Below, piece by piece: positions 21,294 through 60,763 of a DNA stretch of 64,000 bases (positions are counted from its first letter, which is position 1; every line of letters starts with the position of its first letter). The stretch comes from Vulcanimicrobiales bacterium (GTDB lineage: Bacteria > Vulcanimicrobiota > Vulcanimicrobiia > Vulcanimicrobiales > Vulcanimicrobiaceae): positions 140,928 through 204,927 of the forward strand of contig JBBRLI010000004.1 in the NCBI GenBank assembly GCA_038231455.1. The letters run 5' to 3'. The position numbers were made by a program, and so were the translations under genes. The notes under the pieces were generated by a model that worked only from the letters and a program-made list of their open reading frames with translations, was not told the DNA's origin and searched no databases.

Positions 21294-21602
21294 CTACATC
21301 AACCCGGGAATTTTCATCCCGCCGGTGAGTTTGCCCATTTTCTGACCCGAGAGTTCTTGCACTTTGCCAAGCGCATCGTTGAGCGCGACGACGAGCAAAT
21401 CTTCAAGCGTCTCGATGTCATCGGGATCGACGGCTTCTTTGCTCACGGAGATTTTTTGCACGCGGAAATCTCCGTTGATCGACGCGGTCACGGCGTTTCC
21501 GCCGGCACTACCCGTCACGGTTGTCGCTTTGAGCTCGTCTTGAACGCGCTCCATCTCTTGTTGCATCTTGCGCATCTGCGCCATCAATTGGGCTTGGTTC
21601 AT
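21294..21602 (-). CDS. ybaB: YbaB/EbfC nucleoid-associated protein
   Basis: MNQAQLMAQMRKMQ...GSAGG...VDPDDIETLEDL; between dnaX and recR. Confidence 0.93.
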   Translation of the reverse strand: MNQAQLMAQMRKMQQEMERVQDELKATTVTGSAGGNAVTASINGDFRVQKISVSKEAVDPDDIETLEDLLVVALNDALGKVQELSGQKMGKLTGGMKIPGLM

Positions 21603-21621
21603 CGTGTCCTCATTTGCGTGA

Positions 21622-23397
21622 TTAGCTAAAGCGTTTGAGCGCGTAGAGTTTGAGGTCGTTCTGATCGACGGCGCTGCCGTCGTCTTCGGTCGGCGGCGGA
21701 GCGCCCGGACCCTGCACGATTGAGAGCGTGAGCGAACGCCCAAGCACATCGGCAAGCGCTTTTTGCACGAGCGCCTGCTGCGCGCGCAAGAGCTGAGCGT
21801 TGGGCGGCGAGCTCGCGCGTAGCGTAAGCGTATCGCCCTCCAACTTCTCGACCATCGTACTCGAAAGCGGCCCGGCCATCGCCGGCTTCTCGCCTTCGAC
21901 ACGCGTGCGAACGCTCTGCCAAAGCGACCGCACTTTTTGTAAGGAGACCTCGCCCGGCGCGCCGCCCGAGGGCGGTGTTTCCACGTGGATCGGCTCAACC
22001 GCCGAAACCGCGGGTACCGGCGGTTCCGGCGCGGCCGCAACCAGCGGTTCGGGCGCAGCGGCGGTGAGCGGAGAGTCGGAAGGCAAGTCCGCAAGCGTCG
22101 GCTCCGCACCCGATAATGTGTGCACCTCGGGTGAGACGGGTCGCGGAAACGGAACAGCAACGGGATTCGTCGGTCGGGTAGCCGGGGGACGCACGGAAGC
22201 GGCTGCGGGAGCGGGGGCCGACCGCTGAGGCGGGAGCGCCGCAGCAGCCGGAAGCGCCGAGATTCCCCCACCGGCTTCAATGGCGGCGACGCGCGACGCC
22301 AGAGCCTCAAGTGACGGATCTTCCGCCGCTAGCATGAAGCGCAGCAGAGCGGTCTCGAGTTCGAGTCGGGCATTCCCCGACGCGCGACTCGCCGTGAGCG
22401 CTTCGCCAAGCAGCCGCAGCGCGCGAACGATCCGCGCCTGCGACGTCGCGTCGGCACGAGCGAGCGCCTCAGCAGCATCATCGGCCGAAAGATCGCGCGC
22501 GAGCAATTCGGGATTCACGCGGCCAACGAGCAAATGCCGAAATTCCGCCGTCAGGCTCCGGATGAGCCCCGGCATATCGGTCCCTGCATCGCTCGCATCG
22601 TCGATCAGGCGCAACCCCGTAGCCGCATCGTTTGCAAGCGACGCATCGAGCAGCGAACGTGCATATTCACGCCCGGTCGTGCCAAACGCCGCATCAACCG
22701 TCGCAAGATCGACCGGACCATTCGCAAACGACGCAACCTGTTCGAGCATCGTGAGCGCATCGCGCAAGCCGCCATCGGCCCGATACGCAATCGCGCCAAG
22801 CGCCGCATCATCGATCACGATCGACTCGGCAAGCGAGATCTCACGCATCCGCTCGATCATCGTCGGAATCGCAATCCGTCGAAACGCATACCGCTGACAA
22901 CGCGAGAGAATCGTCGGCGGCAACGCCTCCGGCGCCGTCGTCGCAAGAATAAAGACAGCATAGTCCGGCGGCTCTTCAAGCGTTTTTAAGAACGCATTGG
23001 CGCCTTCTTTGGTAAGCATATGCGCTTCATCAATGATGTAGACTTTGTTGCGCATGCTCGAAGGAGAGAACTTCACCGCATCACGCAGCGCCCGAATCTC
23101 ATCGATGCCGCGATTCGACGCAGCATCGATCTCCAAAACATCAAGCGCAGAGCCATTCAAAATAGCAACGCAATTCTCACACGTATTATCAGGCGTCGCC
23201 GTCGGCCCATTCACACACTCAATACACCGAGCGAGAATCTTCGCAGCCGAAGTCTTCCCCGAGCCCCTCGGCCCAGAAAAAAGATACGCATGCGCAAGCC
23301 GCCCCGTCGAGAGCGCCGTACTAAGCGTACGAACAACAGCATCCTGACCAACCAAGTCCGCAAACGACCGCGGACGCCAAGTACGATAGAGCGACAC
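21622..23397 (-). CDS. dnaX: DNA polymerase III subunits gamma/tau
   Basis: LYRTWRPRSF, GPRGSGKT, EIDAASN, IIDEAHML, LLK-like FLKTLEEPP, SRCQ; Pro/Ala linker. Confidence 0.96.
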   Translation of the reverse strand: MSLYRTWRPRSFADLVGQDAVVRTLSTALSTGRLAHAYLFSGPRGSGKTSAAKILARCIECVNGPTATPDNTCENCVAILNGSALDVLEIDAASNRGIDEIRALRDAVKFSPSSMRNKVYIIDEAHMLTKEGANAFLKTLEEPPDYAVFILATTAPEALPPTILSRCQRYAFRRIAIPTMIERMREISLAESIVIDDAALGAIAYRADGGLRDALTMLEQVASFANGPVDLATVDAAFGTTGREYARSLLDASLANDAATGLRLIDDASDAGTDMPGLIRSLTAEFRHLLVGRVNPELLARDLSADDAAEALARADATSQARIVRALRLLGEALTASRASGNARLELETALLRFMLAAEDPSLEALASRVAAIEAGGGISALPAAAALPPQRSAPAPAAASVRPPATRPTNPVAVPFPRPVSPEVHTLSGAEPTLADLPSDSPLTAAAPEPLVAAAPEPPVPAVSAVEPIHVETPPSGGAPGEVSLQKVRSLWQSVRTRVEGEKPAMAGPLSSTMVEKLEGDTLTLRASSPPNAQLLRAQQALVQKALADVLGRSLTLSIVQGPGAPPPTEDDGSAVDQNDLKLYALKRFS

Positions 23398-23578
23398 CAC
23401 CCAAAGTTCGGGAACCGCCACACCCAACCCCACAAGGAACCCCGAACAACAAGCCCAGAGAAAACGCCGCACCGCAGGTGTCTGAACTCCCCCTCAGGGC
23501 TTGGGTTTTCTCGCTACCAACCCTCACCGGCGTTGCCGAACGGGCTTATGAGGAAGCCGCAGATCGAGATCGTGCCTA

Positions 23579-23750
23579 GCGGCTACGGGTGGGGTTTCTG
23601 GCGGGGTGTCTGAGCTTTTCGCGGAGCGTGTTGGCCCAGCGTAGGCTGGGACAACTCATCAGGATGGCGGGAGCGAAAAGTCAGCAAGTAGGCTTTTCCC
23701 AAGGATGGGAAAAGCCGGGCGCCCCCGCCAGAAACCCCACCCGTAGCCGC
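23579..23750 (+). repeat. Long-armed structured palindromic element, copy E1
   Basis: Perfect 28-bp inverted arms 23579-23606/23723-23750 enclosing multiple hairpins; homologous to 58855-58996. Confidence 0.85.
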
Positions 23751-23886
23751 AAGCCCCAACCCAATCAGCCGAAACCCAGCCACGTTTGGCAGAGTATACC
23801 AAGGGGTACCCTCCAACCAAGCCCACTCCTAACTTTGCGCTCATGTTATGACCGCGAAGCTCTTGTATCCTCAGAGTTATACAATT

Positions 23887-25563
23887 ATGAGCACAGCAAC
23901 GGCAATCGATCTCCTCGGAGCACTGCGCGAGAAATTCGGGTTCGAGCGCTTTCAACCGGGTCAAGAAGAAGTGATCACGCGCGTTATGAACGGCGAGAAT
24001 TCGCTCGCCATTTTAGCGACCGGCGCCGGGAAAAGTTTGTGTTATCAGCTCCCCGCGCTGCTGCTGGATGGAACGACGATCGTCGTTTCGCCGCTCATCG
24101 CGCTGATGAAAGATCAGCTCGATATGCTTGCGGAGCGCGGCGTAAAAGAAGTCGTCGCGCTCAACTCGACGCTCTCGGAAGATCAAGAGTCGCGCGCAAT
24201 GTCGCGCATCGCGGGCGGCAGCACGAAGATCGTCTTCGTGACGCCCGAGAAGCTCGAAGACGAAACGTTTATCGGCATTCTCAAGACGCTGCACGTCCCA
24301 CTCTTCGTGGTCGACGAGGCGCACTGTATCTCCGCCTGGGGCCACGATTTCCGTCCCGCGTATTTGGGCCTCGGACACGTGATAGCCGAGCTCAAACACC
24401 CAACCGTTCTTGCGCTTACGGCAACGGCGACGCCCGCCGTGCGCGAAGATATCCTCATCCAGCTGGGCATTCCGAATACGAAGCCGATCGTCAAAGGCTT
24501 CGATCGCCCCAATCTGCGCTACGAAGTCAAACGTGCGGAGAACGAAGCCGCGAAGTTGCGCGCGCTCAAAGATCTCTTCCAAACCGGCCTCGAAGGCACC
24601 GGGATCATCTACACCGCGACGATCAAGAACGCGCTCGAAGTGCAAAAATATTTGCACGACACGTTGAACTTGCCGGCGGCTGTGTACCATTCGAAGTTAC
24701 AGAAGTACGATCGCGTTTCGGTCCACGAACTGTTCATGGGCGAGGCGATCCGTGCGGTCGTCGCCACGAACGCGTTTGGTCTTGGGATCGACAAGCCGAA
24801 CATTCGCTTTGTCGTGCACTACGATCTCCCGGGATCGGTCGAAGCGTATACGCAGGAAGCCGGTCGCGCCGGACGCGACGGCGACCTCTCGCGCTGCATA
24901 TTGATCTACCGCATGAGCGACACGCGCGTGCAGAACTACTTCCTCACCGGCAAGTATCCCAACGTCGAGGAAGTGCAAAAAGTCTTCGGCACGCTCGAAT
25001 ACTTCGGGACGCAAGAAGGCGGCGTGTCGCTCACCGACATGCGCAAGATCTCGCAGCTGCCGCTCACCAAGCTCAAAGTCATCCTGGCCCTGCTCAAGAA
25101 GAGCGGCTTCATCGAGACGAGTTCGCGCGCGAAGTATACGCTTACCGATGCCGCCCGCAAAAACCGTGAGCTGGTTCTCAATCTTGCGAACTACGAGACG
25201 AAAAAGTCGTACGACCAATCGAAGCTCGCTATGATGCTGCAGTACTGCGAGACGGGATCGTGCCGCCGCAAATTCATTCTCAACTATTTTGGCGAGGATT
25301 TCGAGCGCGAGAACTGCGGGCAGTGCGATAACTGCCTTGCCAAGCTTGCGCGTTCTGCCAAAGCCCAATCGAGCAACACGCCGATCGCCTCGACGCCGAC
25401 CGTCAAAGGCGAATATCGTATCGCCGACGTTGTCTTTCATCCGAAATTCGGGCAAGGCACGGTCGAGCGTACCGAGAAAGACCTGGTAACGGTCTTATTC
25501 CCGAGCGTTGGGTATAAGACGCTGCTCGCGTCTGCCGTCAGTCGCGAAGCAAAAATCGCTTAA
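23887..25563 (+). CDS. recQ: RecQ family helicase with C-terminal Tudor-like domain
   Basis: TGAGKSLCYQLP, VDEAHC, QEAGRAGRDG, CRR...YFGE...CGQCDNC. Confidence 0.93.
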   Translation: MSTATAIDLLGALREKFGFERFQPGQEEVITRVMNGENSLAILATGAGKSLCYQLPALLLDGTTIVVSPLIALMKDQLDMLAERGVKEVVALNSTLSEDQESRAMSRIAGGSTKIVFVTPEKLEDETFIGILKTLHVPLFVVDEAHCISAWGHDFRPAYLGLGHVIAELKHPTVLALTATATPAVREDILIQLGIPNTKPIVKGFDRPNLRYEVKRAENEAAKLRALKDLFQTGLEGTGIIYTATIKNALEVQKYLHDTLNLPAAVYHSKLQKYDRVSVHELFMGEAIRAVVATNAFGLGIDKPNIRFVVHYDLPGSVEAYTQEAGRAGRDGDLSRCILIYRMSDTRVQNYFLTGKYPNVEEVQKVFGTLEYFGTQEGGVSLTDMRKISQLPLTKLKVILALLKKSGFIETSSRAKYTLTDAARKNRELVLNLANYETKKSYDQSKLAMMLQYCETGSCRRKFILNYFGEDFERENCGQCDNCLAKLARSAKAQSSNTPIASTPTVKGEYRIADVVFHPKFGQGTVERTEKDLVTVLFPSVGYKTLLASAVSREAKIA

Positions 25564-56348: not shown

Positions 56349-57457
56349 TAGAGCGGCCGAACCGTCGCGGCGCGCACGGCAAAAGCGTGGACCGAGGCAT
56401 CGAGCGCCGGGGCATCGGTCGTCGTGAGAAAGGCCTGTTCGAATCCCTCGAGCGCACCGAGAAATCCAGCCGCACGCTCGGGGTCGAGTTCGGAGAGGAC
56501 ATCATCGAGAAGCAGGATCGGCGCATCGCCGCTACGCGCGTGCATGACATCGTATTCGCCGACCTTGAGCGCGAGTACCGCCGTCCGCTGCTGCCCCTGC
56601 GATCCGTACGCCGCAAGCGGCACCCCGTCGATCGCAAGCGAGAGATCGTCACGATGCGGACCAACGAGCGTCGTGCGCCGCACGATCTCACTCGGTCGAC
56701 GCAGTTCCAAACGCGCTAGGAGCGCCGCCCGAATTTCGCTGATTCGCGTATCGTCGATCTCATCGAGCGGGACATTCGGGGCGTAGCGAATCGCAAGTCG
56801 TTCACCTGCGCCTTCCCAGCGCGCGTAGATGCGCTCCGCGGCTTCGGCGAGTTCATGCACGAACGCGGCGCGCGCATGCACGATCACCGCACCGCTCTCG
56901 GCCAGCGCTTCGTCGTACGCGGCAAGCAACTCCGGATCCGGATCGACAAGACCACGCAGCAGTGCGGACTTTTGCGCGCTGACTTTCTGATACCGCGCAA
57001 GTGCCCGGTAATAGAGCGGACTCTCTTGCGCGAGCGCCGCGTTGAGAAAGCTCCGCCGAAGCGTGGGCGCCCCCGACACAAGACCTAAGTCGGCCGGCAC
57101 GAATGTAACGACGCGCGCTTGCCCAAGAAATTTCGCAAACCCAACGCTCGCCCCGTTCACGTCGTATTTCTTACGCGCCCCGGTCGATGCCGCATCGATA
57201 GAACAACGCAACCGAATCGTTCCGGCAGCAATTCGCGCGATGCCGGCAATCTCGGCGTGTGTCGTTCCGGCACGAACCGTCTCCGACTCACGCGTAGCCC
57301 GAAACGATTTTCCGGTTGCTAGCATCGCGATCGCTTCGAGCAAGTTGCTTTTGCCCTGTGCATTCGGACCGACAAAGACATTCAATCCGGGCGCCGGTGC
57401 AAATTCCAACGCTGCATAATTACGAAAGTCGGTCAGGGCGAGCTGCTCGAGCAGCAC
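56348..57457 (-). CDS. recF: DNA replication/repair protein RecF
   Basis: FRNY, GPNAQGKSN, GPHRDD, GSQGQQR, LLDDVLSELD. Confidence 0.96.
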   Translation of the reverse strand: MLLEQLALTDFRNYAALEFAPAPGLNVFVGPNAQGKSNLLEAIAMLATGKSFRATRESETVRAGTTHAEIAGIARIAAGTIRLRCSIDAASTGARKKYDVNGASVGFAKFLGQARVVTFVPADLGLVSGAPTLRRSFLNAALAQESPLYYRALARYQKVSAQKSALLRGLVDPDPELLAAYDEALAESGAVIVHARAAFVHELAEAAERIYARWEGAGERLAIRYAPNVPLDEIDDTRISEIRAALLARLELRRPSEIVRRTTLVGPHRDDLSLAIDGVPLAAYGSQGQQRTAVLALKVGEYDVMHARSGDAPILLLDDVLSELDPERAAGFLGALEGFEQAFLTTTDAPALDASVHAFAVRAATVRPL

Positions 57458-57461
57458 GCGA

Positions 57462-58577
57462 CTACTGGCGCAGCGGCATCAACACGTAGAGTTGATTCGC
57501 ACCGCTCGCGCTCTCAAGCGGACGAATCGCCGCGGGCGAAAGCGGCCCCAAAAATTCCAACACGACCTGCGGTGAATCGATGTGGTTGAGAATCTCAACC
57601 AGATACCGCGCATTAAAAGCAATCGTCAGATCGTCACCGGTCTGCTCGACCTCAAGCTCTTCATACGCATTACCGGCAAGCTCCGAATTCGCGGTAATAA
57701 TCAACTGCTGATTCGAAACAGCAATCTTGACCATCGAAGCCCGATCCCCGGCAACGAGTTCAGCACGCCGAAGCCCGCCAATAAAAGCACTGGTATTCAC
57801 GGTAACCGAACGATCGAACTTCGCCGGAATCACTTGCCCGTAATTCGGGTACTGCCCATCGACAAGCCGAACAACAATCGACGTCGCATCCGCAGCCAGC
57901 GAAAGCTGATTGCTCTGCGCACCAAGCGCCGTCATCTCAAGAATTTCCGTATTACCAAGATTACGCGCAGCCTCAGCAAGCGCACGCGACGGAATAATAT
58001 ACTTCGCGGGCGCATCGATCGGACGATCGAGTTCCGCCTGCCACTTCGCAAGCCGATACCCATCAGTCGCGACCATCGTAATCGAGTTGCCTTCAACTTC
58101 GACAAGCGTGCCCATCAGCACCGCGCCACGCGCTTCTTCGTTCGAGGCAGCAAAGATCGTCGCGTTCACACCTTCGCGAAACCGTTTTGCAGCAAGCCCA
58201 AAGCTCGCGCCTTTTTGCGCGGCTGGCAGCGGCGGGTATTCATCCGGCGGAAGCGCATGAAAATCGTAGTTCGACTTTTCGCACTTTACACTCGCACGCG
58301 ACGGCGAACCCGTAAGCTCGAGAAGTCCAGCGGGCAAGTTCCCAAGATACCCGGAGAACAATTTAGCGGGAACGGTGACCGACCCCGATTCCGTGATCTC
58401 AGCTAGAAATGCGTGTTCGAGCGTCAGCTCAAGATCCGTTGCACGTACTTTGATCGCACCGTCTTCGGCCGTGAGCAGCACGTTGGAAAGAATTGGAACG
58501 GTGGTATGCGCGTTAACAACTTTGCTCGCGGCACTAACGGCCGACGCAATGTCTTTCGTACTACAGGTAAACTTCAC
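57462..58577 (-). CDS. dnaN: DNA polymerase III beta clamp
   Basis: ATDLE, VATDGYRL, GQYPNY, FNARYL, LMPLR. Confidence 0.97.
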   Translation of the reverse strand: MKFTCSTKDIASAVSAASKVVNAHTTVPILSNVLLTAEDGAIKVRATDLELTLEHAFLAEITESGSVTVPAKLFSGYLGNLPAGLLELTGSPSRASVKCEKSNYDFHALPPDEYPPLPAAQKGASFGLAAKRFREGVNATIFAASNEEARGAVLMGTLVEVEGNSITMVATDGYRLAKWQAELDRPIDAPAKYIIPSRALAEAARNLGNTEILEMTALGAQSNQLSLAADATSIVVRLVDGQYPNYGQVIPAKFDRSVTVNTSAFIGGLRRAELVAGDRASMVKIAVSNQQLIITANSELAGNAYEELEVEQTGDDLTIAFNARYLVEILNHIDSPQVVLEFLGPLSPAAIRPLESASGANQLYVLMPLRQ

Positions 58578-58612
58578 TATCCACCGTCCACGGCCGCTCG
58601 GCCGTCGTCTCG

Positions 58613-58774
58613 TATATATAAAAGGTTAGTCGTACTAGCAGTAACGCGGTGAGCAACGGGGACAAGTCGGGATCCCCAATTACGACAGCACGATGCGCCT
58701 TTTTTCGGTTGTGGATGAATCACACGATCCATCCTCGTCCTAAACAGAGGCCGCGCGAAACCCCATTATCCACG
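58613..58774. other. oriC right half: DnaA boxes, DnaA-trios and AT-rich unwinding element
   Basis: Minus strand TTGTCCCCG TTGCTCACC GCG TTA CTG CTA GTA CGA CTA ACC TTTTATATATA; further boxes at 58710 and 58766. Confidence 0.85.
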
Positions 58775-58854
58775 TTTGAAGCCCCACCCTGTGAGGCGTT
58801 CGGTACAACTCTGTGGGTTTGGTTTTCGATGGGCTCTTTTGGTGATTGTAGCTG

Positions 58855-58996
58855 GCGGGTGGGGGGACGTGTTGCCGGTGGGGACGCCCGCATTTTTACG
58901 TCGTGTAAAAATGCTACTTGCCGACTTTTCGCTCTCGCCAATCCTGGCTTCGCGAAAAGCTCGGACACCCCACCGGCAACACATCCCCCCACCCGC
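58855..58996 (-). repeat. Long-armed structured palindromic element, copy E2
   Basis: 29-bp inverted arms (one mismatch, a G-U pair on the minus strand) 58855-58883/58968-58996; core homologous to E1. Confidence 0.85.
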
Positions 58997-59082
58997 GAGG
59001 CACGATGCATATAAAACGAAACCGCCCAGCATTGTGCTGGGCGTAACGATCGTGGCGTGCATTCAAGGTTAATGGTGCGCGT

Positions 59083-60453
59083 CTATTCGCTTTGGCAGAG
59101 TGCTAAGAGCGAACGAACCTTATTCCGATAGGCTTCGTCGCGTTCCATCAAGTCTTTGACTTTGTCGCGAGCGTACATCACGGTCGTGTGATCTTTCTTG
59201 CCGAAGTCGCGCGCGATTTGCGGCAGCGAGCAATCGGTGAGTTCGCAGGCAAGATACATCGCGATTTGGCGCGGGGCAGCAAGACGCTGATCGCGGCGGC
59301 CGTTGTCCATCTCCTTGACCGTGAGAGCATGGGCTTTGGCAACGCGCTCTTTAATGAGCGGGATCGTAACGCGGTGCATGGGGGCTTGCGCGACGGCGTT
59401 CTTGAGCACTTCGGCGGCAAGGTCGACCGTGATCGGCGACTTCGTCAAAGAGGCGAACGCGACCACGCGGATCAGCGAACCTTCGAGCTCGCGGATGTTC
59501 GACGGGATCACTTTTGCGATGAACGACGTCACTTCATCAGGGACCGGGATTTTCTCGGTCTCTGCTTTCTTACGCAAGATCGCTTCGCGCGTTTCTAAAT
59601 CCGGAGGCTGGATGTCGGTGAGGAGTCCCCACTCGAATCGCGAGCGGAGGCGATTCTCCAGCGTTTGGATTTCTTTGGGCGGCCGGTCGCTTGAGATGAC
59701 GAGCTGTTTGCTTGCTTCGTGAAGGGAGTTGAAGGTGTGGAAGAACTCTTCTTGGGTTTGTTCCTTGCCTTCTAAGAACTGAATGTCGTCGATCAGCAGC
59801 ACGTCGACGTGGCGGTACCGGTTGCGGAACTCGACGGTCTGATTATTTTTGATCGCGATGATGAATTCGTTGGTGAACTTCTCACTTGAGAGGTAGACCA
59901 CGTTCGCGCTTGGGTTTTGGGCGAGGACCCGGTGGCCGATCGCATGCATGAGATGCGTCTTGCCCAGGCCCACTCCGCCGTAGAGGAAGAGCGGATTGTA
60001 GGCTTTGGCCGGTGTCTCGGCCACAGCCTGAGAGGCGGCGTGGGCGAACCGGTTGCTGTTTCCAACGACGAATTCATCGAAGGTGTAACGCGGGTTGAGA
60101 TTCCCTTGGCGCAGCTCCTCGGGTGGGACGATCGTGCGGGTCGGCGCGGAGACCGTCGTCGTTTGCGAAGGGGCTTCGCCCGTATCGGTCGCCACGACAA
60201 AGCGAATGTCGATGCTGGTGCCAAGCAGGGTTGCGAGCACGTCGGCGATCTCGGATTTCAGGCGGTTTTCGACCCAATCGCGGGCGAAATTCGAATGGAC
60301 CGCGAGGACGATCTCGGAGTGGTTGACCTCAACGAGCCGCATTGGCTTGAGCCACATCTCGAAGATCGGTTTCGAGTATTTTCGTTCCAGCGATTCAAGT
60401 GCCGCAGCCCATAGATCGCCCGCGACATCCGTCGCATTCGTAACACTCGGCAT
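59083..60453 (-). CDS. dnaA: Chromosomal replication initiator DnaA
   Basis: [37 protein letters not shown]; start ATG 60453. Confidence 0.97.
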
Positions 60454-60586
60454 AGACGTTCCCTGCTGACTAGAAGAGAAAAGTATCGACCGTCCGCACC
60501 TTATGACCGGGGGTGCGAAACGGGATGAATGAGCCACCTCGGATTGGCGCCCATAGACCCTAGTCCTGCGCTTGCGGGGCGAAAAC

Positions 60587-60763
60587 TTATGCACTTATCC
60601 ACAGGGCTATAAACAGGCAAAAGTCCTTGATTTTACGAGGTTTTCCGCGGGTTATCCGCAAGGCAAAAGTAGCCCTAAATGGGGCAGGAGTCCTCGTCGT
60701 GCGGTCGATTGCGGCGCACCCGTGCGACCGGTTCTCCACAGGCTTGTCCACCGATGTGGAAAA
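60587..60763. promoter_or_regulatory. DnaA-box cluster upstream of dnaA (oriC left half / autoregulation)
   Basis: TTATCCACA 60595, TTATCCGCA 60652, TTCTCCACA 60732, TTGTCCACC 60744, TGTGGAAAA 60755. Confidence 0.85.

What the first reader, a model, noticed from the sequence alone, without database searches (positions are those of the whole stretch)
22400..23840. Extreme local G/T skew in dnaX synonymous codons next to element E1
Seen: by manual count, the first ~60 dnaX codons include about 5 C-ending and no A-ending codons (TAT CGT ACT...GTT GGT CAG GAT GCT GTT GTT...TGT ATT GAG TGT), whereas gyrB, bamA and rne are strongly C-ending. The protein remains a conserved DnaX, and the bias fades toward the 3' end of the gene. 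Non-coding flanks 23400-23470 and 23751-23840 are A/C-rich on +, the same skew. Inference: a localized strand-specific mutation footprint (C>T, A>G on the minus strand, as expected for deamination of persistently single-stranded DNA) near the hairpin element, e.g. from nicking, helicase loading or R-loops.
Basis: partly seen in the sequence, partly recalled or inferred. Interest (0 to 1): 0.75.

Follow-up and report, generated by a model that had tools for sequence, protein, structure and literature searches.

The report
Hairpin repeats flanked by strand skew
The odd G/T-ending codons at the start of dnaX are real and belong to a roughly 2 kb one-sided zone of strand-specific base bias found beside most copies of an undescribed hairpin repeat in this soil-type bacterium, a pattern that seems to be written and kept up by the repeat itself.

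Summary
Observation confirmed. The first 60 dnaX codons end in G29/T26/C5/A0. The 400-nt window over the dnaX 5' end has the lowest G+T fraction of 73,421 windows in the genome.

It is not codon selection, horizontal replacement or an assembly artefact. Of 29 other dnaX orthologs, only the same-genus one shares the bias, and only that one also has element E1 beside dnaX.

E1 is a 160-215 nt three-way-junction hairpin with strong covariation and no Rfam family. It has 10 copies here and up to 52 in relatives.

Third-position G+T on the element strand falls from 0.50 (-3 kb) to 0.25 (-0.5 kb). It recovers within about 0.25-0.5 kb 3' of the element, whatever the strand of the flanking genes. Seven of 9 evaluable copies lie below the 1st percentile of random sites. 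The six most extreme skew clusters in the genome all adjoin E1.

Where one of the two sister genomes lost E1, the proximal skew is weaker.

The bias equals C>T and A>G on the strand opposite the folded strand. Both shift alike, in every dinucleotide context, with no rise in synonymous divergence. This fits a strand-biased repair or fixation process better than plain single-strand deamination.

The mechanism is unresolved.

The parts
21622..23397 (-). dnaX (clamp-loader tau/gamma subunit). Its 5' two thirds carry the synonymous G/T (keto) bias.
   Evidence: Pfam domains. Keto3 falls 0.92 > 0.78 > 0.75 > 0.69 > 0.64 > 0.57 along the gene.
21600..23472 (.). Skewed zone on the 5' side of E1 copy 1. 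It is A/C-rich on the + strand and strongest at 23074-23473.
23569..23752 (+). E1 copy 1. It has the ATCGTGCC 5' motif, a long P1 stem (23576-23620 pairing with 23709-23753), P2 with a 32-nt optional insert hairpin, and the P3 hairpin 23691-23716. The covariance-model core is 23593-23737.
23751..23840 (+). Short A/C-rich tail on the 3' side of E1.
   Evidence: 68% A+C. Pooled keto3 is 0.32 in the first 250 nt 3' of the cores.
23848..25563 (+). RecQ-type helicase gene downstream of E1 copy 1. It is not skewed (keto3 0.47).
58846..59006 (-). E1 copy 2, between the dnaA terminator and DnaA-box-like words plus an AT-rich tract (probable oriC). Core is 58869-58981.
59083..60594 (-). dnaA, on the 5' side of E1 copy 2. 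It shows moderate skew of the E1 type (element-strand keto3 0.31-0.49).
57462..58577 (-). dnaN, on the 3' side of E1 copy 2. Its coding strand has a strong G/T third-position bias that peaks at 57450-58200 and stops at the stop codon. The geometry differs from the other copies.

Best explanation
**Tier 1 (what it is; about 0.85 likely).**
- Long-resident copies of a structured repeat, E1, carry a DNA-level, strand-specific substitution bias in their surroundings. It covers about 2 kb on the 5' side and about 0.25 kb on the 3' side.
- On the strand opposite E1's folded strand, C>T and A>G are favoured. The element strand therefore becomes A/C-rich.
- Where the zone overlaps a conserved gene, only synonymous sites can respond. 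This gives G/T-ending codons in genes on the opposite strand (dnaX) and A/C-ending codons in genes on the same strand.
- The bias depends on the element's presence, is actively maintained, and is strong only in this genus.

**Tier 2 (committed mechanism; about 0.35 likely, inferred and not shown).**
- The hairpin repeatedly creates a strand discontinuity (a nick or gap) on its own strand.
- Excision and resynthesis tracts of up to 1-2 kb start there and run 5'-ward.
- These tracts resolve G-T type mismatches using the opposite strand as template.
- Transitions that arise on the opposite strand are therefore kept, and those that arise on the element strand are erased.
- This redistributes substitutions between strands without raising the total rate.
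For: **Association**
- The pooled third-position G+T on the element strand, over 10 copies, runs 0.48 (-3000), 0.39 (-2000), 0.32 (-1000), 0.25 (-500), 0.26 (-250), 0.32 (0 to +250), 0.45 (+250), then 0.50-0.55.
- The profile is the same for same-strand and opposite-strand genes, for example 0.26 and 0.25 at -500.
- Seven of 9 evaluable copies fall below the 1st percentile of 20,000 random sites. The mean is 0.276, against a minimum of 0.406 among 100,000 random 9-site means.
- The six most extreme of 39 skew clusters, and 10 of the 39 overall, lie within 2 kb of an E1 copy.

**Derived state**
- dnaX keto3 for codons 1-115 is 0.89 here and 0.80 in the same-genus G001, which has E1 at the same place. 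It is 0.42-0.54 in 28 of 28 other orthologs.
- None of those 28 has E1 within the locus.

**Dependence on the element**
- At C5, this genome has lost E1 and G001 keeps it. Keto3 is 0.43 against 0.22 at 0-500 nt, and 0.36 against 0.25 at 500-1000 nt. This runs against the general trend.
- Where G001 lost E1 (the C9 locus, by deletion that leaves stem remnants; and C10a), its flank is still skewed but weaker.

**Bias rather than hypermutation**
- Four-fold divergence is 0.353 (n=1011) near and 0.383 (n=4435) far. Transition differences are 0.148 and 0.149.
- My own two-state arithmetic on those counts expects about 120 A/G differences if only G>A were raised, and about 85 under a symmetric bias. 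The observed number is 83.
- Both transitions are shifted alike in all contexts.

**Not an artefact**
- The same pattern appears at orthologous sites in two independent assemblies.
Against: - No nick, gap or repair tract is observed. Tier 2 rests only on the shape, length scale, spectrum and rate.
- For C/T differences, the additive-mutation model (about 71 expected) fits 67 observed slightly better than the symmetric model (about 55). This is my arithmetic.
- One copy (C10:101978) shows no third-position skew (0.486) and one is marginal (0.395).
- Twenty copies in the complete genome G005 show no skew and 4 in G003 show none. E1 alone is therefore not sufficient.
- The dnaN skew beside the oriC copy has a different geometry.
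- Twenty-four of the 39 skew clusters adjoin neither E1, its lost site, nor E2.
- Gene calls come from my own crude ORF scorer.
- G000 is in general more skewed than G001 (101 against 51 at four-fold sites). This confounds two of the three loss comparisons.
Confidence: 0.4

Rival explanations
1. Recurrent single-strandedness. The strand opposite E1 is repeatedly exposed, starting at the element. The cause could be helicase loading or replication restart, an R-loop, or a fixed priming site that leaves the 5'-side template uncopied longest. Spontaneous deamination (C>U, A>hypoxanthine) then writes the gradient.
For: - The sawtooth shape has its maximum just 5' of the element and drops sharply 3' of it. 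This matches the single-strand-time gradients just 5' of the HIV polypurine tracts (PMC1635257, abstract read) and those of mitochondrial DNA (PMC4182315 and PMC3269012, abstracts seen).
- The polarity is that of a replication origin's leftward arm.
- One E1 copy sits beside the probable oriC, and both flanks there carry origin-type polarity over about 1.5 kb in a genome with no global skew.
- There is no dinucleotide specificity, as expected for spontaneous chemistry.
Against: - Synonymous divergence and transition differences near E1 are not raised.
- A>G is shifted about as much as C>T. Adenine deamination is far slower than cytosine deamination (recalled).
- UDG and RNase H are present in all 25 of 25 genomes searched, so no repair loss explains the genus specificity.
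- Element orientation shows no consistent relation to background skew or to gene-strand bias.
Confidence: 0.25
2. Selection on flank composition. The flanks are kept poor in G and T on the element strand, so that neither strand, as RNA or as single-stranded DNA, can pair with itself or with the G/U-rich 5' arm of the long stem. Alternatively the selection provides C-rich, G-poor RNA for a factor such as Rho.
For: - A fixation-type bias fits the unchanged A/G difference rate (and my arithmetic).
- Proximal skew decays fast after element loss (0.22 to 0.43).
- The non-coding DNA next to the element is the most extreme (bins at -300 to -100 show 24-34% G+T).
- E2, a second unrelated hairpin repeat, has a short A/C-rich 5' flank.
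Against: - It would need weak selection on hundreds of synonymous sites out to 2 kb, inside genes on either strand, declining smoothly with distance.
- Twenty copies in G005 do without it.
- No transcript is known, and no RNA run holds the locus (a blank, not evidence).
Confidence: 0.2
3. Transcription-associated asymmetry. A promoter at or just 3' of E1 fires away from it, antisense to E1. The non-template strand, which is the strand opposite E1, accumulates C>T and A>G over the first 1-2 kb.
For: - The polarity and length scale fit.
- At dnaX the gene really is transcribed in that direction.
- By eye, a TTGGTT-N16-TATACT word lies on the minus strand at about 23790-23822 (read). A TATACT word at the corresponding place in G001 was read.
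Against: - In half of the copies the 5'-flank gene lies on the element strand. Such transcription would run antisense through whole genes.
- The consensus scan found no such promoter.
- No motif shared by all copies was found on that side.
- The folded strand is the element strand: 54 G-U pairs against 13 A-C.
Confidence: 0.1
4. Coincidence or insertion preference. E1 merely inserts into, or survives in, DNA that was already skewed. Alternatively the dnaX 5' end was replaced horizontally.
For: The flanks of lost copies stay skewed, so skew can exist without the element.
Against: - All 28 of 28 dnaX orthologs and 28 of 28 dnaN orthologs outside the genus are unskewed at the same codons.
- Amino-acid identity of the dnaX N-terminal segment follows taxonomy: 0.98 genus, 0.77-0.90 family, 0.62 class.
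- The skew weakens next to lost copies.
- The G001 empty site is a deletion with stem remnants, not a virgin target.
Confidence: 0.03

Closest known systems
Replication-linked compositional skew (leading strand G/T-rich, sign switch at oriC)
   Same: - Keto/amino strand asymmetry seen at synonymous sites.
- The polarity beside E1 is that of one arm of an origin.
- One E1 copy lies at the probable oriC.
   Different: - The extent is about 2 kb, not a replichore.
- About ten dispersed sites show it.
- It is one-sided.
- The genome has almost no global skew: mean |GC skew| at four-fold sites is 0.028 in 40-kb windows.
Single-strand-time gradients: HIV minus-strand editing maxima just 5' of the polypurine tracts (PMC1635257), and the vertebrate mtDNA heavy strand around OL
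   Same: - Sawtooth profile, with the maximum just 5' of a fixed structured or priming site and a sharp drop after it.
- G>A on the reference strand.
   Different: - No TC/CC context preference.
- A>G is as strong as C>T.
- No rate increase.
- No known single-stranded replication intermediate in a bacterial chromosome.
Transcription-associated strand asymmetry near 5' ends of genes (known from mammals and E. coli; recalled, not read here)
   Same: G+T excess on one strand that decays over 1-2 kb.
   Different: Independent of the strand of the annotated genes.
CsrB/RsmZ-type CsrA-sequestering RNAs
   Same: - E1 shows CAGGAUG in the P2 apex and CA(A/U)GGAUG in the P3 loop. These match the CsrB repeat CAGGA(U/A/C)G and the SELEX consensus RUACARGGAUGU (PMC7652899, passages).
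- CsrA is encoded here.
   Different: - Only two sites per unit.
- They are closed by a 30-45 bp stem that differs in every copy.
- There are 10-52 dispersed copies.
- No binding or expression data exist.
Dispersed hairpin repeats (REP/REPIN, MITE-like elements; recalled)
   Same: - Multicopy and intergenic.
- Found in all gene orientations.
- They break assemblies.
- They are lost by deletion.
   Different: - The outer stem sequence is unique to each copy, with compensated changes.
- No terminal repeats shared between copies.
- No target duplication seen.
- Seven of 10 copies have an orthologous E1 site in the sister species, six by alignment and C10:77167 by inspection.

Membership tests
Replication (ori/ter) compositional skew | Skew sign is constant over a replichore and switches only at the origin and terminus. 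| tested here: not met
   Background four-fold GC skew around the 10 copies is -0.12 to +0.06 with no consistent sign. The mean |skew| genome-wide is 0.028. The E1-linked skew spans about 2 kb.
Transcription-associated or codon-usage bias | The bias follows the coding strand of the gene. | tested here: not met
   Element-strand keto3 is equally low in same-strand and opposite-strand genes: 0.23-0.31 against 0.25-0.33 at -1000 to -500.
Horizontal replacement of the dnaX 5' end | The segment shows discordant similarity to relatives. | tested here: not met
   Segment identities follow taxonomy in 29 of 29 orthologs.
Enzymatic cytosine-deaminase hypermutation (APOBEC, DddA or SsdA type) | C>T only, with a dinucleotide context preference. 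| tested here: not met
   Odds ratios are 2.4-4.6 in all four 5' contexts and 2.4-4.5 in all four 3' contexts. A>G is also shifted, by 2.0-4.1.
Reverse-transcriptase systems (DGR, retron) | A reverse transcriptase gene is present, with adenine-specific changes. | tested here: not met
   No RVT_1 match in this 93.7%-complete genome. The changes are transitions at G and T of the element strand.
Any Rfam family (for E1 and E2) | A match at the gathering score. | tested here: not met
   There are 0 matches in the window. The best E-value is 2.2 over 23300-23900. There are 0 matches at E<=0.1 on the E2 loci.
Structured RNA or single-strand element (E1) | Base pairs are kept through compensatory change. 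| tested here: met
   - 38 of 43 pairs change on both sides across 33 copies.
- 91.4% of cells are paired, against 63.2% when shuffled (0 of 500 shuffles reach it) and 35-47% when slid.
- 35 of 58 pairs show compensatory change among 8 copies of this genome.
CsrA-binding RNA (CsrB/Rsm type) | GGA motifs of the CAGGAUG type presented in hairpin loops. | tested here: met
   There are two such motifs per copy, nearly invariant. The consensus comes from PMC7652899.
CsrA-binding RNA (CsrB/Rsm type) | The host encodes CsrA. | tested here: met
   CsrA is present here at 84 bits. Twenty-one of 22 genomes with E1 have it, against 10 of 19 without E1. Kin are not independent.
CsrA-binding RNA (CsrB/Rsm type) | The RNA is expressed and binds or titrates CsrA. 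| not testable with these tools
   No RNA run holds the locus.

The most novel reading that the evidence does not exclude
E1 is a dispersed chromosomal element at which a strand-specific DNA transaction recurs. The transaction could be a hairpin-directed nick or gap with long-patch correction, or helicase loading of the kind used at oriC, where one copy sits. Each copy would then act as a small, polar writer of base composition on its neighbours. That would be a new source of local mutation or repair asymmetry in bacteria, possibly coupled to a CsrA-binding RNA encoded by the same element.
Probability: 0.3. Interest if true: 0.9.

Novelty: new variant of a known kind. Interest (0 to 1): 0.8.

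Why it matters
- Strand-composition skews in bacteria are read as marks of replication or transcription on the scale of replichores or genes. Here a small repeated hairpin marks the sites of the strongest skews in a genome that otherwise has almost none.
- Sister-genome losses suggest the skew needs the element to persist.
- If the cause is mutation or repair, this gives a natural, repeated, polar reporter of a DNA transaction at structured DNA. Candidates are nicking, gap repair, restart or unwinding. It can be tested by moving one element into a model organism.
- If the cause is selection, it shows that a non-coding element can constrain hundreds of synonymous sites in essential neighbours.
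- It also shows that local codon-usage outliers can be misread as horizontal transfer.
- It adds a widespread structured element family not found in Rfam, with CsrA-type loops, in Eremiobacterota and several other phyla.

Tried and rejected
- **Rfam:** no family for E1 or E2.
- **First covariance model:** A trimmed core alignment was used instead.
- **RNA evidence:** no RNA holder listed for window 22800-24100, only DNA runs kept as contigs.
- **Repair-loss idea:** UDG is present in 25 of 25 genomes and RNase H in 25 of 25 relatives. There is no phyletic contrast.
- **Reverse-transcription idea:** no RVT_1 in the genome.
- **Replication-direction idea:** element orientation is unrelated to background four-fold skew or to gene-strand bias. 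The G005 copy orientations listed look mixed within short stretches (read by eye).
- **Guide or target idea:** the P1 arms match only their own partner arm in the genome.
- **Promoters and terminators:** the consensus scan gave nothing useful around E1. A sigma-54-like GG-N10-GC word at the 5' motif holds in only 2 of the 6 copies I checked by eye.
- **Protein families:** Pfam and NCBIfam give no family for the 408-aa ORF that replaces E1 at C5, or for the 250-aa ORF beside C10:101978.
- **Motif scan of genome contigs:** About 70 chance hits are expected by my estimate. Only 18 of the 40 loci I re-scored with the model matched at E<=0.01, and none of the 7 Desulfosporosinus loci did.
- **Literature:** searches with the terms (listings and abstract starts only) showed no report of skew anchored on a bacterial repeat. 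This is not proof that none is in print, and supplements were not seen.
Full report
**1.

dnaX is window 21622-23397 on the minus strand (Pfam clamp-loader domains). From its GTG start, the first 60 codons end in G29, T26, C5, A0. The third-position G+T fraction (keto3) then falls 0.92, 0.78, 0.75, 0.69, 0.64, 0.57 along the gene.

The non-coding stretches 23400-23470 and 23751-23840 are 79% and 68% A+C on the + strand. The other 44 called genes in the window have coding-strand keto3 of 0.37-0.58, except dnaN at 0.71.

The 400-nt window at 23074-23473 has G+T of 0.3225. That is the lowest of all 73,421 windows in the 3.71-Mb assembly (mean 0.499, sd 0.034).

**2. Ordinary explanations fail.**

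- *Position in the codon.* The bias sits at codon position 3: 0.57/0.47/0.89 for positions 1/2/3 in codons 1-115. Outside the genus, orthologs give about 0.50-0.57/0.44-0.49/0.42-0.54.
- *Orthologs.* I examined 29 other dnaX orthologs. Only the same-genus genome G001 shares the bias (0.80). The other 28 give 0.42-0.54, with C3 dominant. Two of the 28 (from G020 and G022) are genomes flagged unpublished.
- *Horizontal replacement.* Amino-acid identity of the N-terminal segment follows taxonomy: 0.98 genus, 0.77-0.90 family, 0.62 class. The 5' end was therefore not replaced horizontally.
- *Assembly artefact.* The pattern recurs at orthologous sites in two independent assemblies.

**3. The element.**

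E1 beside dnaX is window 23569-23752 on the + strand. Its anatomy is:
- a conserved ATCGTGCC word at the 5' end;
- a 30-45 bp closing stem P1, whose sequence differs in every copy but stays paired;
- a three-way junction;
- P2, which carries an optional 32-nt hairpin in 3 of the 8 copies aligned;
- a P3 hairpin;
- an AGCCAC-type word after the stem.

Covariation is strong. Among 8 copies of this genome, 35 of 58 predicted pairs show compensatory change. Over 33 copies from 20 genomes, 38 of 43 pairs change on both sides. In that set 91.4% of cells are paired, against 63.2% in shuffles (0 of 500 reach it) and 35-47% when the partner is slid.

G-U pairs outnumber A-C 54 to 13, so the + sense is the folded strand.

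Rfam has no family for it.

A covariance model of the core finds 10 copies in this genome. It finds matches in 22 of 41 genomes of the class: 52 in the complete genome G005, 19 in G003, 13 in G017 and 9 in G001.

Record titles place the family in Eremiobacterota/Vulcanimicrobiota. Model-level matches also occur in Binatia, Krumholzibacteriia, Fibrobacteraceae, Limnocylindria and Chromatiales records.

**4. Co-location.**

I made my own gene calls: 2,940 ORFs covering 85% of the genome, from a crude codon-score caller. I then pooled third positions around the 10 copies on the element strand.

| Position relative to E1 core | Keto3 |
|---|---|
| -3000 | 0.48 |
| -2000 | 0.39 |
| -1250 | 0.35 |
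| -1000 | 0.32 |
| -750 | 0.27 |
| -500 | 0.25 |
| -250 | 0.26 |
| 0 to +250 | 0.32 |
| +250 | 0.45 |
| +500 to +1000 | 0.54-0.55 |
| beyond | 0.50-0.52 |

Genes on the element strand and genes on the other strand give the same curve. The cause therefore acts on DNA strands and not on codons.

Base composition at third positions changes from A .14, C .38, G .37, T .11 (-3000) to A .33, C .42, G .17, T .08 (-500). This is G>A and T>C on the element strand, which equals C>T and A>G on the opposite strand.

For the 1000 nt on the 5' side, the 9 evaluable copies give 0.145, 0.191, 0.208, 0.234, 0.235, 0.266, 0.321, 0.395 and 0.486.
- The null from 20,000 random sites has mean 0.500 and sd 0.056. 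Its 1st percentile is 0.373.
- Seven of the 9 copies lie below that percentile.
- The mean is 0.276. No mean of 100,000 random sets of nine fell below 0.406.

Among the 39 most extreme 600-nt third-position clusters in the genome, the top six all adjoin E1. Ten of the 39 lie within 2 kb of a copy.

**5. Natural experiments with the sister genome G001** (82-91% nucleotide identity).

Six G000 copies have an E1 at the orthologous G001 site (C11, C31, C1, both C4 copies, C3).

A further skew cluster of G000, C5:136501-138400 (keto3 down to 0.23), has no E1. G001 has one at exactly that junction. In G000 it is replaced by 1.3 kb carrying a 408-aa ORF of no known family.

At that locus, third-position G+T on the element strand compares as follows.

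| Distance on the 5' side | G000 (element lost) | G001 (element kept) |
|---|---|---|
| 0-500 nt | 0.43 | 0.22 |
| 500-1000 nt | 0.36 | 0.25 |

Within 1 kb, transition differences run 40 (G000 G or T, G001 A or C) against 15 in reverse. This is the opposite of the general trend. At shared loci G000 is the more skewed genome: 101 against 51 for A/G at four-fold sites in the 5' flank, and 182 against 154 far away.

The reverse case also exists.
- At the C9 locus, G001 has lost E1 by deletion between short repeats, leaving remnants of the outer stem. Its flank is still skewed (0.24-0.29) but less so than G000's (0.16-0.30).
- At C10:77167, G001 lacks E1 and gives 0.27/0.35/0.43 against 0.11/0.22/0.37.

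The element is therefore old, is being lost rather than spreading in this genus, and its presence goes with maintenance of the skew. The general excess in G000 confounds the last two comparisons but not the C5 one.

**6. What kind of bias.**

Near E1 (0-1200 nt on the 5' side, six orthologous loci), four-fold divergence between the sister genomes is 0.353 (n=1011). Far away it is 0.383 (n=4435). A/G plus C/T differences are 0.148 and 0.149. There is no local rise in substitution rate.

A two-state calculation of my own from those counts gives these expectations:
- About 120 A/G differences if only G>A were raised.
- About 85 if G>A were raised and A>G lowered symmetrically.
- The observed number is 83.

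For C/T, the additive model (about 71) fits 67 slightly better than the symmetric one (about 55). This argument is therefore suggestive only.

Relative to the genome, the odds of T over C on the opposite strand are raised 2.4-4.6-fold in all four 5' contexts and 2.4-4.5-fold in all four 3' contexts. The odds of G over A are raised 2.0-4.1-fold. There is no dinucleotide signature, and both transitions shift alike.

**7. E1 is necessary-looking but not sufficient.**

Raw G+T in 250-nt bins around copies in other genomes:
- G005, 20 copies: flat at 47-52%.
- G003, 4 copies: flat.
- G017, 8 copies: dips to 41-44% within 500 nt on the 5' side.
- G019, 8 copies: 44-45% at -1250 to -500 and 53-55% on the 3' side.

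The effect is thus graded among lineages and strongest in this genus.

UDG and RNase H are present in all 25 genomes searched (the tally includes the unpublished G009). No reverse transcriptase was found here.

**8. The second copy in the window.**

E1 at 58846-59006 (minus strand) lies between the dnaA terminator and DnaA-box-like words plus an AT-rich tract just upstream of dnaN. This is the usual place for oriC.

dnaA, on its 5' side, has moderate skew of the E1 type.

dnaN, on its 3' side, has a strong coding-strand G/T bias: + strand keto3 of 0.17-0.24 at 57450-58200. The bias peaks 0.6-1 kb from the intergenic region and stops at the stop codon.

This too is genus-specific. Coding-strand keto3 over the 3' two thirds of dnaN is:
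- G000: 0.78 and 0.77.
- G001: 0.64 and 0.66.
- 28 other orthologs: 0.36-0.58 (two of these are from the unpublished G009 and G036).

E1 adjoins dnaN only in G000, G001 and G009. In G009 it has the other orientation and there is no skew.

On the window's + strand, the two sides of this spacer carry the polarity of a replication origin, but only over about 1.5 kb. The genome's large-scale skew is negligible. I cannot explain the dnaN geometry.

**9. What E1 may be.**

Its two best-conserved loops read CAGGAUG (P2 apex) and CA(A/U)GGAUG (P3 loop). These match the CsrB repeat CAGGA(U/A/C)G and the SELEX consensus RUACARGGAUGU for CsrA (PMC7652899, passages read).

CsrA is encoded here. Twenty-one of 22 genomes with E1 have it; the exception is the 75%-complete, unpublished G009. 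Among genomes without E1, 10 of 19 have it. Relatives are not independent, so this is a lead only.

A second unrelated hairpin repeat, E2 (for example C7:109301-109550), also lacks an Rfam family. It sits beside 4 more of the 39 skew clusters and has a short A/C-rich 5' flank (pooled keto3 0.44 at -500 and 0.36 at -250).

**10. Mechanism.**

*Shown:* the association, the polarity, the gradient, independence from gene strand, the derived state, weakening after loss, no rate increase, and no context preference.

*Inferred:* the cause.

I commit to a strand-biased correction or resynthesis process anchored at a hairpin-made discontinuity on the element strand (about 0.35). It accounts for a redistribution of transitions between strands without extra substitutions, for both G-T-type transitions shifting alike, and for a 1-2 kb one-sided tract.

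The rivals are:
- *Recurrent exposure of the opposite strand with spontaneous deamination*, through helicase loading or restart, an R-loop, or a fixed priming site (about 0.25). It explains the sawtooth best. The same shape is seen just 5' of the HIV polypurine tracts (PMC1635257, abstract). It fits the rate and the A>G share poorly.
- *Selection on flank composition* (about 0.2).
- *Antisense transcription from the element* (about 0.1).
- *Insertion preference or horizontal replacement.* This is essentially excluded.

**11. Comparison and novelty.**

The phenomenon works like known strand-asymmetry gradients at origins, mtDNA OL, HIV PPTs and transcription start regions. It fails the defining tests of each (see the membership table).

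My searches (listings and abstract starts only) turned up no report of a bacterial repeat that anchors a local skew.

**12. Caveats.**

- The genome is a 106-contig assembly of an uncultured bacterium.
- The gene calls are my own.
- Counts across relatives are not independent.
- There are no expression data.
- Fork direction at each copy is unknown.
- Twenty-four of the 39 skew clusters remain unexplained.

Noticed in passing
window 58590-59082: The dnaA-dnaN spacer holds, in minus-strand order, a dnaA terminator hairpin, an E1 copy, three DnaA-box-like words (TGTGGATAA type) and an AT-rich tract. This is probably oriC, with E1 inside it.
   Followed up: partly
window 57450-58200 (dnaN 3' half): Very strong third-position skew (+ strand G+T 0.17-0.24). 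It peaks away from the spacer and ends exactly at the dnaN stop. It is genus-specific, with 28 of 28 other orthologs unskewed. The geometry does not fit the E1 5'-side rule.
   Followed up: partly
G000 C7:109301-109550, C3:83391-83581, C11:4013-4163 (loci L198-L200) and weaker copies: A second repeat family, E2, with inverted repeats, no Rfam match and downstream GCCCTCAGGC...GCCAC modules. It adjoins 4 of the 39 skew clusters and has a short A/C-rich 5' flank.
   Followed up: partly
G000 C5:138968-140311 (L197:4469-5812): A 1.3-kb segment with a 408-aa ORF of no Pfam or NCBIfam family sits exactly where the sister genome has an E1 copy.
   Followed up: partly
L005:1860-2100 against L243:3360-3450: G001 lost the C9 copy of E1 by deletion between short direct repeats, leaving the outermost stem bases. 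Just upstream, both genomes carry ATCGTGCC joined directly to ACCACCC, which looks like the scar of another deleted copy.
   Followed up: no
E1 loops, e.g. window 23660-23667 and 23700-23708: There are two CsrA-type CAGGAUG / CAAGGAUG loops per element. E1 occurs almost only in genomes that encode CsrA: 21 of 22 with E1, against 10 of 19 without.
   Followed up: partly
table (G003, G009, G017, G026, G001 contig ends): Many E1 copies lie at the first or last 100-300 nt of contigs, so the repeat breaks short-read assemblies. Copy numbers in fragmented genomes are therefore underestimates.
   Followed up: no
window 23790-23822, minus strand: A TTGGTT-N16-TATACT promoter-like word lies between E1 and recQ and points toward dnaX. 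The TATACT part is conserved in G001. If real, the dnaX leader would contain the antisense of E1.
   Followed up: no
L075, L093, L108, L109, L114, L135, L143 (Desulfosporosinus records) and deltaproteobacterial records: The 19-nt conserved E1 loop word recurs in several assemblies of these unrelated groups without a model-level E1 match. It could be a diverged relative or another RNA that shares the loop.
   Followed up: no
G000, 24 of the 39 skew clusters (e.g. C53:3701-4600, C2:401-2500, C2:141501-142400, C35:19201-20600): Strong local third-position skews with no E1 or E2 nearby. Several lie at contig ends or beside convergent intergenic hairpins. Third-position skew is over-dispersed genome-wide: sd 0.061 for windows of 150 or more sites, against about 0.035-0.04 expected from sampling (my estimate).
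   Followed up: no
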